Shown: in pieces, positions 52,077-55,000 of the stretch
How positions within the stretch are numbered: the first letter of the stretch is position 1
Layout of the letters: each line of letters begins with the position of its first letter
NCBI RefSeq assembly: GCF_022846255.1
Contig: NZ_AP025682.1
DNA: 64,000 nt
DNA from: Escherichia coli
Lineage (GTDB): Bacteria > Pseudomonadota > Gammaproteobacteria > Enterobacterales > Enterobacteriaceae
Reading direction: 5' to 3' (one strand)
Program-made: the position numbers

Positions 52077-55000
52077 TAATTCCAGGGATTTATCAATGAA
52101 ACAAACACAACGTCACAACGGTATTATCGAACTGGTTAAACAGCAGGGTTATGTCAGCACCGAGGAGCTGGTAGAGCATTTCTCCGTTAGCCCGCAGACT
52201 ATTCGCCGCGATCTCAACGAGCTGGCAGAGCAAAACCTGATCCTGCGCCATCATGGCGGTGCGGCGCTGCCTTCCAGTTCGGTTAATACGCCGTGGCACG
52301 ATCGCAAGGCCACCCAGACCGAAGAAAAAGAGCGCATCGCACGCAAAGTGGGGGAGCAAATTCCCAATGGCTCGACGCTGTTTATCGATATCGGCACCAC
52401 GCCGGAAGCGGTGGCGCACGCGCTGCTTAATCACAGCAATTTACGCATTGTGACCAACAATCTCAACGTCGCTAACACGCTGATGGTAAAAGAGGATTTC
52501 CGTATCATTCTTGCCGGTGGCGAATTACGCAGCCGCGATGGCGGGATCATTGGCGAAGCAACGCTCGATTTTATCTCCCAGTTCCGCCTCGATTTCGGCA
52601 TTCTGGGGATAAGCGGCATCGATAGCGACGGCTCGCTACTGGAGTTCGATTACCACGAAGTTCGCACCAAACGCGCCATCATTGAGAACTCGCGCCACGT
52701 TATGCTGGTTGTCGACCACTCAAAATTTGGCCGTAACGCAATGGTCAATATGGGTAGCATCAGCATGGTCGATGCTGTCTACACCGACACGATGCCGCCT
52801 GCGAGCGTGATGCAGGTGCTGAAGGACCATCATATTCAACTGGAGCTGTGCTGATCCTGCATTGCTTCCCATGTCAGACCAAAACGCGCCAGGTATTTGC
52901 GTAGCCGATCCGCGTCATTGACGCTGGCTTTACCCTGGCGCGAAACATCAAAAAGCTGTCGTCCGGCAGCAGAAAGCGACTTTGCCTGGCGGCAGATAGC
53001 GATAACGTGTTCCAGTTGCATACGGTCGAAGAGATCGATGTTTTCTGCCTCTGCGCCCAGCAACGCCGTAAGCGTGGAGGGGCGACTCTCCTGCCAGTTA
53101 TAGCGCAGACGGTTGATCTCATCTTCCACCGTATCCAGTGTGATGCGTCCGCTAGTGGCAAAGGTGGCCATCCGCGTGACGCTGGCAGAAAGTTCGCGAA
53201 AGTTACCGCGCCATGTTGCCTGGGGAGAGGTCGCAAAGGCCAGCCAGGCACGCCGCGCTTCGGTGTTAAAACGCACGCTGTCGCCAGTGAGTGAGGCGTG
53301 GCGCTCCACTTCATAATCCAGGTTCGGTTCAATATCTTCCTGGCGTTGGCGTAATCCTGGCAAGGTGAAGGTCCAGAGATTTATTCGCGCGTACAGGTCT
53401 TCACGAAATTTGCCTTCGGCAACCAACTGGCGCAAATCGCGCACCGTTCCGGCGATAAGCTGAAAATCACTGCTCACCTGGCGATCGCTGCCAAACGGGT
53501 AAAAGGTTTTCTCTTCAATGGCTTTCAGCAGCATTGCCTGTTCGTCTGCGCCCAGTTCGCCAATCTCATCAAGAAACAACATTCCGCCGTTGGCGCTGCG
53601 TAATAATCCTTCACGCGATTCCCGCGCCCCGGTAAACGCGCCTTTCACATGACCAAACAGCGTCGACATGGCGGTATCGCCGCGCAGGGTGGCGCAGTTC
53701 ACTTCCACAAACGCGCCGCTAAACTGATGCCGCGCCTGTTTTAGCTCGAAGATACGTCGTGCCAGAAATGACTTACCTGCACCGGTCGGGCCGTTAAGCA
53801 GGATCGGTGCGCGGGATTTTATCGCCACTTTTTCAATCTGCTCAATCATGCGGTTGAAGTGGGAGTTACGCGTGGCAATACCGGACTTAAGAAAATCAAG
53901 CGTTTGCTGGCGTTCCTCGGCAAAGCGGCTGGCGATGGCGTTATAACGGCTTAAATCGAGATCGATAATCGTCACTGCGCCAGGGCTATCGGGCCGCTCT
54001 TTTTTGCGCGGTGGTGAAGATTGTATCAACCGGGTGGGCAGGTAACGCGCTTCTGCCAGCAGAAACCAGCAAATCTGCGCGACGTGGGTGCCGGTGGTGA
54101 TGTGAATTAAATACTCTTCTTTATCAGGTTGGAACGCGTAACCACGGGCGAAATCATGCAGGCAGGCGTAAACCTCTTCGAAATCCCAAGGGTTATGCAG
54201 TTCTATCTCAACGCCCACCACTTCTGTTTCTGGCGAAACGCTGGCGATATCGCGTTTAAGCGTTTCGAATAGCGAGCGCGAGCGGGCGTCGTGCAATAAT
54301 TCCAGCCGATCGATAACTAACGATTCTTGCTGGCATAGACAGAGTGTCGGACGCCATTTTGACCAGCGCTGACTGCCGCGCCCGGCATAATCCAGCACCG
54401 TTCCGACAAAGCCAAAAGCCACTGTTTTACGCATCTTAGATATCCTTATAAAAGACGAGATTTCATTATCGGTAAATCGGCTTTGCGGGAAATCTCCGTT
54501 TACGGACGTAAAAATATAATATTTTTAAAAACAATGAATTAAAAAATTAAGATGCTTATTTGATTTTCTGGCACGACGGTTGCAATTATCAGGACAGCAA
54601 ACAACGAAAAGAGAAAAACAAAATGAATTACGAATTACTGACCACTGAAAATGCTCCGGTAAAAATGTGGACCAAAGGCGTGCCGGTAGAAGCCGATGCG
54701 CGTCAGCAACTTATTAATACCGCGAAGATGCCATTTATTTTCAAACATATTGCGGTAATGCCTGATGTACACCTGGGTAAAGGTTCCACCATTGGTAGCG
54801 TGATCCCGACCAAAGGGGCGATTATTCCGGCGGCGGTGGGCGTGGATATTGGCTGTGGAATGAACGCACTGCGTACCGCGTTAACGGCGGCGGACCTGCC
54901 TGAAAACCTGGCAGAGCTGCGTCAGGCGATTGAAACGGCCGTACCGCACGGACGTACTACCGGGCGTTGTAAACGTGATAAAGGCGCATGGGAAAATCCG

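What the first reader, a model, noticed from the sequence alone, without database searches (positions are those of the whole stretch)
54435..54622. Textbook sigma-54 promoter for rtcBA, divergent from its activator gene rtcR
Seen in sequence: TGGCACGACGGTTGCA with exact -24 GG and -12 GC spacing upstream of rtcB, and an AT-rich upstream region suitable for enhancer and IHF binding. Known biology; recorded as a positive control for the regulatory calls.
Basis: partly seen in the sequence, partly recalled or inferred. Interest (0 to 1): 0.2.

Follow-up and report, generated by a model that had tools for sequence, protein, structure and literature searches.

The report
Known sigma-54 promoter of rtcBA
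This is the already well-studied sigma-54 promoter that switches on the E. coli RNA-repair genes rtcB and rtcA under control of the neighbouring activator gene rtcR, so it is an ordinary and correct positive control.

Summary
The observation and the interpretation both hold. TGGCACGACGGTTGCA lies at 54569-54584 (+), inside the 188-nt gap between rtcR (52836-54434, minus strand) and rtcB (54623-55849, plus strand). The GG and GC fall at -24 and -12 relative to a start at 54595. The 17-mer CTGGCACGACGGTTGCA is identical to the E. coli K-12 rtcB site bound by sigma-54 in published ChIP-seq and listed as experimentally confirmed. The motif alone is not rare: about one hit of that matrix score is expected per random 64 kb. 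Position and conservation make it real. In 27 of 29 other RtcR loci, from Enterobacteriaceae to Desulfobulbus, the best sigma-54 hit lies 120-161 nt from the rtcR start and points away from it. An IHF consensus sits at a conserved distance upstream.

One qualification applies: the native promoter is reported to be very weak in vitro, so "textbook" describes sequence, not strength.

I add one inference. A phased array of GATA/TATC half-sites next to rtcR is the likely RtcR enhancer, whose sequence a 2016 review lists as unknown. In Enterobacteriaceae it is the palindrome CGATA-N6-TATCG. This window's lineage carries CGAGA in one half-site.

Novelty: already known. Interest is low.

The parts
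52836..54434 (-). rtcR, the sigma-54 activator (bacterial enhancer-binding protein, bEBP). It has an N-terminal RtcR/CARF domain, an AAA+ sigma-54 interaction domain with GAFTGA, and a conserved C-terminal helix-turn-helix.
   Evidence: NCBIfam NF038308 RtcR equivalog, 847 bits. Pfam RtcR and Sigma54_activat. GAFTGA and GPTGAGKS are in the translation. The C-terminal motif NDADRLRKYL is invariant in 18 of 20 aligned RtcRs and near-identical in the other two.
54443..54447 (-). Probable Shine-Dalgarno of rtcR (AAGGA on the minus strand, 8 nt before the ATG).
   Evidence: Read from the sequence. The TCC core is conserved in 8 enterobacterial genera. Inference.
54441..54444 (.). Outer TATC half-site of the GATA/TATC array. 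It overlaps the rtcR ribosome-binding region.
   Evidence: Positions (K-12-like: 5>, 7<, 23>, 33<). Inference.
54456..54471 (.). Candidate RtcR enhancer (UAS): palindrome CGAGA-TTTCAT-TATCG, centred near -131. The consensus in other E. coli and 8 enterobacterial genera is CGATA-N6-TATCG. This window has G instead of T at 54460.
   Evidence: Half-sites are invariant and the spacer variable across 8 genera. The palindromic EM search picks it every time in Enterobacteriaceae. It lies inside the 175-nt RtcR-responsive reporter fragment of Engl 2016. The G variant is in 517 genomes, the T variant in at least 4280. RtcR binding is inferred, not shown.
54465..54470 (-). Possible -10 hexamer (GATAAT) of the rtcR sigma-70 promoter, overlapping the right half of the palindrome.
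   Evidence: Relaxed scan only, 8 of 12 matches with a poor -35. The standard scan found no sigma-70 promoter. Weak inference.
54490..54507 (.). Block AAATCTCCGTTTACGGAC, conserved within Escherichia only. It contains the palindrome CCGT-TT-ACGG. Function unknown.
   Evidence: Nearly invariant in 9 Escherichia sequences. Not alignable in other genera.
54529..54549 (+). IHF-site region, about -66 to -46. It holds two overlapping one-mismatch matches to WATCAANNNNTTR: AAACAATGAATTA at 54529-54541 and AATTAAAAAATTA at 54537-54549.
   Evidence: Other RtcR loci have perfect consensus sites on the same strand at 40-43 nt (6 loci) or 29-30 nt (3 loci) upstream of the sigma-54 17-mer. An 'rtc IHF binding site' is mentioned in PMC9650030.
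54568..54584 (+). Sigma-54 promoter core CTGGCACGACGGTTGCA. The -24 GG is at 54570-54571 and the -12 GC at 54582-54583.
   Evidence: Identical to ChIP-seq site OS35 rtcB. Invariant TGGCAC-N5-TTGCA in 8 genera.
54595..54595 (+). Inferred transcription start (C, preceded by A at 54594).
   Evidence: It is 12 nt after the -12 C. It equals Bonocora's predicted start, 19 nt from the motif centre and 28 nt before the ATG. It fits the ApC (-1/+1) primer plus ATP used for native PrtcBA. Not measured here.
54595..54622 (+). 28-nt rtcB leader with a weak purine-rich ribosome-binding site (GAGA at 54611-54614).
   Evidence: Sequence. CAACGAAAAGAGAAAAAC is conserved in Escherichia.
54623..55849 (+). rtcB, RNA ligase (408 aa).
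   Evidence: RefSeq annotation of an identical junction. RtcB family hits.
55853..56869 (+). rtcA, RNA 3'-terminal phosphate cyclase (338 aa).
   Evidence: NCBIfam NF003247, 776 bits. RefSeq coordinates mapped.

Best explanation
This is rtcBp, the enhancer-dependent sigma-54 promoter of the rtcBA RNA-repair operon.

Proposed mechanism. RNA polymerase carrying sigma-54 sits on the -24 GG / -12 GC core (54568-54584) as a closed complex that cannot open on its own. RtcR is made from the divergent gene. I infer that it binds GATA/TATC half-sites about 125-155 bp upstream, chiefly the palindrome at 54456-54471. Its N-terminal CARF domain keeps it inactive. Published work reports that damaged tRNA fragments and RtcA/RtcB relieve that block. 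IHF then bends the AT-rich DNA around -66 to -46, which brings the RtcR oligomer to the polymerase. ATP hydrolysis and the GAFTGA loop remodel sigma-54, and transcription starts at about 54595, giving a 28-nt leader before rtcB.

Shown here: the motif, its register, the gene identities, the RtcR domains, and the conservation of the promoter, the IHF site and the palindrome.
Taken from the literature: sigma-54 occupancy, RtcR and RpoN dependence, and the signals.
Inferred: the exact enhancer sequence, the exact IHF site and the start nucleotide.
For: Motif and register.

Matrix score: 15.55 bits, 74th percentile of ChIP-verified sites.

[quoted passage not shown] The Salmonella orthologue TGGCACGCTGGTTGCAAT is sigma-54-bound and shows sigma-54-dependent reporter activity.

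Genes: RtcR equivalog, RtcB and RtcA; GAFTGA and Walker A.

No sigma-70-like promoter in 54300-54750 on either strand.

Conserved position: the best sigma-54 hit lies 120-161 nt from the rtcR start on the divergent strand in 27 of 29 other RtcR loci across several phyla.

IHF: consensus at a conserved distance.

Enhancer: CGATA-N6-TATCG is invariant in 8 enterobacterial genera with a variable spacer. Across 25 loci, 66 GATA/TATC tetramers fall in the first 60 nt upstream of rtcR, against 18.3 expected. Pair distances peak at 10, 20 and 30 nt. The RtcR C-terminal helix-turn-helix is conserved across the same taxa. A 175-nt fragment (54448-54622) is RtcR-responsive, and in multicopy it is inferred to titrate RtcR.
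Against: The native promoter was 'very weak in vitro', and its core was replaced by nifH's to obtain activity. Good consensus therefore does not mean strong function.

Some inductions of the rtcBA reporter were RtcR-independent (table), so another route of expression may exist.

The motif score alone is expected about once per random 64 kb.

No RtcR footprint is available, and a 2016 review lists the RtcR enhancer as not known.

Outside Enterobacteriaceae the motif search placed sites inconsistently.

This window's lineage has a mismatch (CGAGA) in the proposed half-site.
Confidence: 0.95

Rival explanations
1. The site binds sigma-54 polymerase but is not the productive promoter. On this reading rtcBA is mainly transcribed from an unrecognised sigma-70 promoter in the AT-rich spacer.
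For: Bonocora et al. stress that many sigma-54 sites may never fire. The native promoter is very weak in vitro. Some reporter inductions (hfq, rnhA and rppH deletions, rof overexpression) were RtcR-independent. A TATAAT hexamer lies at 54515-54520 on the plus strand.
Against: No sigma-70-type promoter passes the scan. The TATAAT lacks a -35 and is not conserved even within E. coli; other strains have TTTAAC. The site is marked as confirmed in EcoCyc. The Salmonella orthologue shows sigma-54-dependent activity. The position is conserved across phyla.
Confidence: 0.03
2. Sub-claim rival: the conserved palindrome at 54456-54471 is not the RtcR enhancer. It would instead be the rtcR promoter or operator, or a leader element. 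RtcR would then bind elsewhere, for example the Escherichia-specific block at 54490-54507.
For: The right half-site reads GATAAT on the rtcR-sense strand, a plausible -10. The outer TATC overlaps the rtcR ribosome-binding site. The block at 54490-54507 is conserved in Escherichia and contains a small palindrome. No binding data exist.
Against: Both half-sites are invariant while the spacer varies, which is the pattern of a dimer-binding site. Ralstonia has the symmetric variant CGATC-N6-GATCG. The 10-nt phased GATA/TATC arrays recur next to rtcR in distant taxa that share the RtcR helix-turn-helix. The block at 54490-54507 is absent outside Escherichia. The two roles are also compatible, because an enhancer that overlaps the activator's own promoter gives autoregulation.
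Confidence: 0.3
3. The motif is a chance match with no function.
For: About one hit of equal matrix score is expected per random 64 kb.
Against: It has the expected strand and distance from rtcB and lies next to a sigma-54 activator gene. It is conserved in 27 of 29 other RtcR loci. The identical K-12 sequence is occupied in ChIP-seq.
Confidence: 0.01

Closest known systems
E. coli K-12 rtcBp (Genschik et al. 1998; Bonocora et al. 2015 site OS35; Engl et al. 2016)
   Same: Identical 17-mer CTGGCACGACGGTTGCA. The same 28-nt distance to the rtcB ATG and the same divergent rtcR.
   Different: Between the rtcR start and the promoter core the window differs from the K-12-like sequence at about nine positions. 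These include T to G at 54460 (palindrome left half-site), C for T at 54479 (AAATCGG vs AAATTGG) and G for A at 54563, just upstream of -24. None touches the -24/-12 core.
Salmonella Typhimurium rsrp, promoter of rsr-yrlBA-rtcBA
   Same: An RtcR-dependent sigma-54 promoter divergent from rtcR, with core TGGCACGCTGGTTGCAAT. It is sigma-54-bound and shows sigma-54-dependent activity.
   Different: In Salmonella the first gene is rsr (Ro60 homologue), followed by Y RNAs. Here rtcB follows the promoter directly. Enterobacter, Phytobacter, Intestinirhabdus and Superficieibacter loci have the rsr-type layout.
pspF-pspA divergent sigma-54 control region of E. coli (from my own knowledge of the family)
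   Same: The activator gene is divergent from its target operon. An enhancer lies next to or over the activator's own promoter, an IHF site lies between enhancer and -24/-12, and the activator is held in check by products of the operon it controls. The PspA/PspF parallel is drawn in PMC9650030.
   Different: PspF lacks a regulatory domain, whereas RtcR has a CARF-type domain. The enhancer sequences are different.
nifH/NifA and glnAp2/NtrC enhancer-dependent promoters
   Same: The general architecture: an enhancer about 100-150 bp upstream, a DNA bend, then the -24/-12 core.
   Different: Different activators and enhancer motifs. The nifH core outperforms the rtcBA core in vitro.

Membership tests
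Sigma-54 (-24/-12) promoter class | GG and GC dinucleotides in the TGGCAC-N5-TTGCW register | tested here: met
   Exact match at 54569-54584.
Sigma-54 (-24/-12) promoter class | Matrix score within the range of sites bound in vivo | tested here: met
   15.55 bits, 74th percentile of 132 ChIP-seq sites. The site itself was left out of the matrix.
Sigma-54 (-24/-12) promoter class | A cognate enhancer-binding ATPase with a GAFTGA loop encoded nearby | tested here: met
   RtcR equivalog. Sigma54_activat domain. GAFTGA and Walker A.
Sigma-54 (-24/-12) promoter class | Correct orientation and distance to a downstream gene, with no competing sigma-70 promoter | tested here: met
   The core ends 38 nt before the rtcB ATG. 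No sigma-70-like site was found.
Sigma-54 (-24/-12) promoter class | Occupancy by sigma-54 in vivo, and transcription that depends on RpoN | not testable with these tools
   Literature only: ChIP-seq on the identical K-12 sequence and the Salmonella orthologue. Genschik 1998 is not held in the library.
Enhancer-dependent promoter architecture (UAS + IHF + core) | An IHF consensus between enhancer and core | tested here: met
   Two one-mismatch sites at 54529-54549. Perfect sites at conserved distances in 9 other RtcR loci.
Enhancer-dependent promoter architecture (UAS + IHF + core) | An activator binding site about 80-150 bp upstream | tested here: inconclusive
   The conserved palindrome at -139 to -124 and the phased GATA/TATC arrays support it. 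No binding data exist, and the enhancer is listed as not known in PMC4987338.
rtcBA operon of E. coli | Gene order rtcR (divergent), rtcB, rtcA between glpR and malT | tested here: met

The most novel reading that the evidence does not exclude
The RtcR enhancer, listed as not known in a 2016 review, may be a helically phased array of GATA/TATC half-sites abutting the rtcR start codon. In Enterobacteriaceae it is reduced to the palindrome CGATA-N6-TATCG. In Pseudomonas and several beta-proteobacteria it is TATC-N6-GATA followed by further half-sites at 10-nt steps. It would be read by an RtcR helix-turn-helix that is nearly invariant across phyla. Because it overlaps the rtcR leader or promoter, it could also autoregulate rtcR. 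A lineage of 517 of 5426 complete E. coli genomes, including this window, Nissle 1917 and ATCC 11775, carries a half-site substitution (CGAGA) that might alter inducibility.
Probability: 0.5. Interest if true: 0.3.

Novelty: already known. Interest (0 to 1): 0.1.

Why it matters
As a positive control it succeeds. The first-stage reader located a real, experimentally established sigma-54 promoter from sequence alone, with exact boundaries. That lends some credit to its other regulatory calls.

The check also shows that a consensus sigma-54 motif is expected about once per 64 kb by chance. Context and conservation, not the motif, should carry such calls.

The only new element is a testable proposal for the RtcR binding site and a natural half-site variant. 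This would help people who study how the Rtc RNA-repair response is induced, including its reported role in tolerance to ribosome-targeting antibiotics.

Tried and rejected
1. The 8-bp inverted repeat GAGATTTC / GAAATCTC (54457-54464 and 54489-54496) looked like an enhancer. It is perfect only in this window's lineage, because of the T-to-G change. Other Escherichia have 7 of 8 and other genera lack the second arm. Rejected.

2. A palindromic EM motif search over 16 loci found the enterobacterial palindrome reliably but placed sites inconsistently in distant taxa (a first version timed out). I replaced it with simple tetramer counting and spacing statistics.

3. The sigma-70 promoter and terminator scan of 54300-54750 found nothing. 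A relaxed scan gave only weak candidates for the rtcR promoter.

4. An Rfam scan of the whole window found nothing in this region; the only hit was RyhB, elsewhere.

5. Genschik et al. 1998 is not held in the library. The supplements of PMC9650030 do not give the promoter, UAS or IHF sequences. I therefore could not check whether an enhancer was already proposed there.

6. The pattern CGATA-N6-TATCG with one mismatch occurs 5 times in the window against 1.8 expected. The other four hits, where checked, lie inside open reading frames and look like chance.

7. One search was an empty script.

Full report
**What is in the sequence.** The window is Escherichia coli chromosome. The 388 bases around the finding are 100% identical to several complete genomes, including ATCC 11775, and 4856 of 5426 complete E. 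coli genomes hold a match. The finding's coordinates, 54435-54622, are exactly the gap between two divergent genes. On the minus strand, 52836-54434 encodes a 532-aa protein that matches the NCBIfam RtcR equivalog at 847 bits (cut-off 650). On the plus strand, 54623-55849 encodes RtcB and 55853-56869 encodes the RNA 3'-phosphate cyclase RtcA. glpR lies on one side and malT on the other. RtcR has the Pfam RtcR (CARF-type) domain, the sigma-54 interaction domain, Walker A GPTGAGKS and the GAFTGA loop.

The quoted 16-mer TGGCACGACGGTTGCA is present once, at 54569-54584 (+). Its GG is at 54570-54571 and its GC at 54582-54583. If transcription starts 12 nt after the C, at 54595, these are -24 and -12.

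**Is it more than chance?** The strict consensus TGGCAC-N5-TTGCW has two matches in the window against 0.16 expected. I built a position weight matrix from the 135 sigma-54 ChIP-seq sites tabulated by Bonocora et al. 2015 (PMC4591121), leaving out the three sites that lie in this window. The rtcB site scores 15.55 bits. That is the 74th percentile of real sites and second in the window after 2612-2628, which scores 18.44.

Forty random first-order Markov sequences of the same size gave on average 0.98 hits at or above 15.55. The motif alone therefore proves little. Scaled to the correct strand of a 188-nt gap, the expectation is about 0.001. The context carries the weight.

**Published evidence on the same sequence.** The 17-mer CTGGCACGACGGTTGCA is identical to Bonocora's site OS35. 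That site is assigned to rtcB, has occupancy score 17, is flagged 'C' (experimentally confirmed in EcoCyc), and has a predicted start 28 nt before the gene. This maps to window 54595.

- Engl et al. 2016 (PMC5175333) describe rtcBA as activated by RtcR through sigma-54 polymerase from a -24/-12 promoter with an upstream activating sequence. They used the 175 nt upstream of the rtcB ATG (window 54448-54622) as an RtcR-responsive reporter.
- Kotta-Loizou et al. 2022 (PMC9650030) mention the rtcBA UAS and an 'rtc IHF binding site'. They primed the native promoter with ApC at -1/+1 plus ATP, which fits A54594-C54595-A54596. They infer that the reporter plasmid titrates RtcR.
- The same paper reports that the wild-type promoter was 'very weak in vitro', so its core was replaced by that of nifH. 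'Textbook' is true of the sequence, not of strength.
- The Salmonella orthologue (rsr promoter, TGGCACGCTGGTTGCAAT) is sigma-54-bound and shows sigma-54-dependent reporter activity (PMC3844500).
- From my own memory of the abstract of Genschik et al. 1998, the start site was mapped and RpoN dependence shown. The paper is not held in the library.

**Comparative evidence obtained here.** I collected 29 other RtcR loci. Nineteen came from one genome per species and ten from protein look-ups. In 27 of them, the best sigma-54 matrix hit in the sequence scanned upstream of rtcR (the first 500-800 nt) lies on the divergent strand, 120-161 nt from the rtcR start. The window's value is 134. Scores range from 10.8 to 19.0. 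One locus has its hit at 197 nt and one has none. These loci span Enterobacteriaceae, Pseudomonas, several beta-proteobacteria, a myxobacterium and Desulfobulbus/Desulfovibrio relatives. They drive different first genes: rtcB, rsr or others.

Within Escherichia the 16-mer is invariant in 8 of 9 aligned sequences. The ninth has a single G-to-A change at a non-critical position.

**IHF.** The consensus WATCAANNNNTTR occurs perfectly, on the promoter strand:

- 40-43 nt upstream of the 17-mer in Iodobacter, Accumulibacter, three Pseudomonas and Ralstonia;
- 29-30 nt upstream in Superficieibacter, Salmonella and one further enterobacterial locus.

One-mismatch versions occur at the same distances in five more loci. 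E. coli has two overlapping one-mismatch candidates, at 54529-54541 and 54537-54549 (about -66 to -46). I cannot choose between them.

**A candidate enhancer (inference).** An alignment of eight enterobacterial genera shows four conserved islands in otherwise unalignable DNA:

- the rtcR ribosome-binding region;
- a palindrome, CGATA-N6-TATCG;
- the IHF region;
- the -24/-12 core.

The palindrome's half-sites are invariant while its six-base spacer varies. That is the pattern expected of a dimer-binding site. In the window it lies at 54456-54471, centred near -131. This is inside the RtcR-responsive 175-nt reporter fragment.

In Ralstonia the equivalent element is CGATC-N6-GATCG, a symmetric change. 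In Pseudomonas, Caballeronia and other beta-proteobacterial loci there is TATC-N6-GATA followed by further half-sites.

The tetramer statistics across 25 loci are as follows:

| Measure | Observed | Expected from shuffles |
|---|---|---|
| GATA/TATC in the first 60 nt upstream of rtcR, all 25 loci | 66 | 18.3 |
| Same, 16 non-enterobacterial loci only (summed) | 39 | about 11.3 |

The density in those 60 nt is about seven times that of the rest of the spacer. Distances between tetramers peak sharply at 10, 20 and 30 nt. The RtcR C-terminal helix-turn-helix is nearly invariant over the same taxa (for example NDADRLRKYL). This would explain a shared recognition motif.

A 2016 review lists the RtcR enhancer sequence as 'NK', not known (PMC4987338). 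I could not check whether Genschik 1998 had already marked this repeat. No binding experiment exists for it, so it remains a hypothesis at about 50%. The right half-site reads GATAAT on the rtcR-sense strand and might double as the rtcR -10, which would give autoregulation. This is weak.

**A polymorphism.** The window has CGAGA instead of CGATA (G at 54460). The 40-mer with G is found in 517 complete genomes, including Nissle 1917 and ATCC 11775. The version with T is found in at least 4280. One distant locus (L037) naturally has CGAGA as well, so the change may be neutral.

**Rivals.** A sigma-70 promoter for rtcBA is not supported. No candidate passes the scan. The one TATAAT in the spacer lacks a -35 and is not conserved within E. 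coli. Some RtcR-independent reporter inductions have been reported, so a minor alternative route cannot be excluded. A non-productive or chance site is contradicted by the conservation and the literature.

**Verdict.** This is the known rtcBA sigma-54 promoter, a valid positive control of low interest. The added value is a chance estimate for such motifs, a conserved architecture (enhancer, IHF site, core at fixed distances from rtcR) and a testable enhancer proposal.

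Noticed in passing
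window 2612-2628 (+): CTGGCACAGTTGTTGCT is the best sigma-54 matrix hit in the window (18.44 bits). It lies 40 nt upstream of a 284-aa ORF at 2669-3523. It is identical to the published sigma-54 ChIP-seq site OS36 assigned to rpoH, so it is the known sigma-54 promoter of the heat-shock sigma factor gene.
   Followed up: partly
window 35807-35823 (+): AAGGCATGTTTTATGCA is identical to the published intragenic sigma-54 binding site IS43 inside glgA, which has a high occupancy score of 49. It scores only 12.4 bits on the matrix.
   Followed up: partly
window 19060-19124 (+): RyhB small RNA, Rfam RF00057, 83 bits. It is the only Rfam family reaching its gathering score in the window.
   Followed up: no
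window about 39700-49130: An extra 9.3 kb or so lies between glgP and glpD relative to K-12. The glgA-to-rtcB sigma-54 sites are 18,761 nt apart here and 9,404 nt apart in K-12 coordinates. In ATCC 11775 the insert is annotated as a chaperone-usher fimbrial operon plus three hypothetical genes.
   Followed up: partly
window 54460: T-to-G substitution in the otherwise invariant left half-site of the palindrome next to rtcR (CGAGA instead of CGATA). It is present in 517 of 5426 complete E. coli genomes, including Nissle 1917. The T form is in at least 4280.
   Followed up: yes
window 52836-54434; L001 2503-4100: rtcR is an intact 532-codon ORF in the window. It is annotated as a frameshifted pseudogene in the ATCC 11775 assembly, whose junction sequence is identical. 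glpG is also flagged as frameshifted there, which may reflect assembly errors.
   Followed up: no
L038 (E. coli AMSCJX03) 4079-4850: About 570 of 5426 complete E. coli genomes have no match to the rtcR-rtcB junction. In strain AMSCJX03 an IS1 element replaces the promoter region, the first codons of rtcR and the 5' part of rtcB.
   Followed up: partly
window 52836-52854: The 3' ends of glpR (ORF 52045-52854, +) and rtcR (52836-54434, -) overlap convergently by 19 nt.
   Followed up: no
window 54490-54507: The block AAATCTCCGTTTACGGAC is almost invariant across Escherichia species and absent from other genera. It contains the small palindrome CCGT-TT-ACGG. Its function is unknown.
   Followed up: partly
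window 54527-54541 and 54616-54630: A 15-nt direct repeat (AAAAACAATGAATTA / AAACAAAATGAATTA, 87%). The first copy is in the IHF region and the second spans the rtcB start codon. Probably chance.
   Followed up: no
window 25721-25737 (-) and 57278-57294 (+): Two further sigma-54 matrix hits, GCGGCGCAGAAATTGCA (15.4 bits) and CTGGCGCAGTTGTTGCG (14.4 bits, within the malT ORF span on the opposite strand). Neither is in the published high-stringency ChIP-seq list. They are consistent with the chance rate of about one such hit per 64 kb.
   Followed up: no
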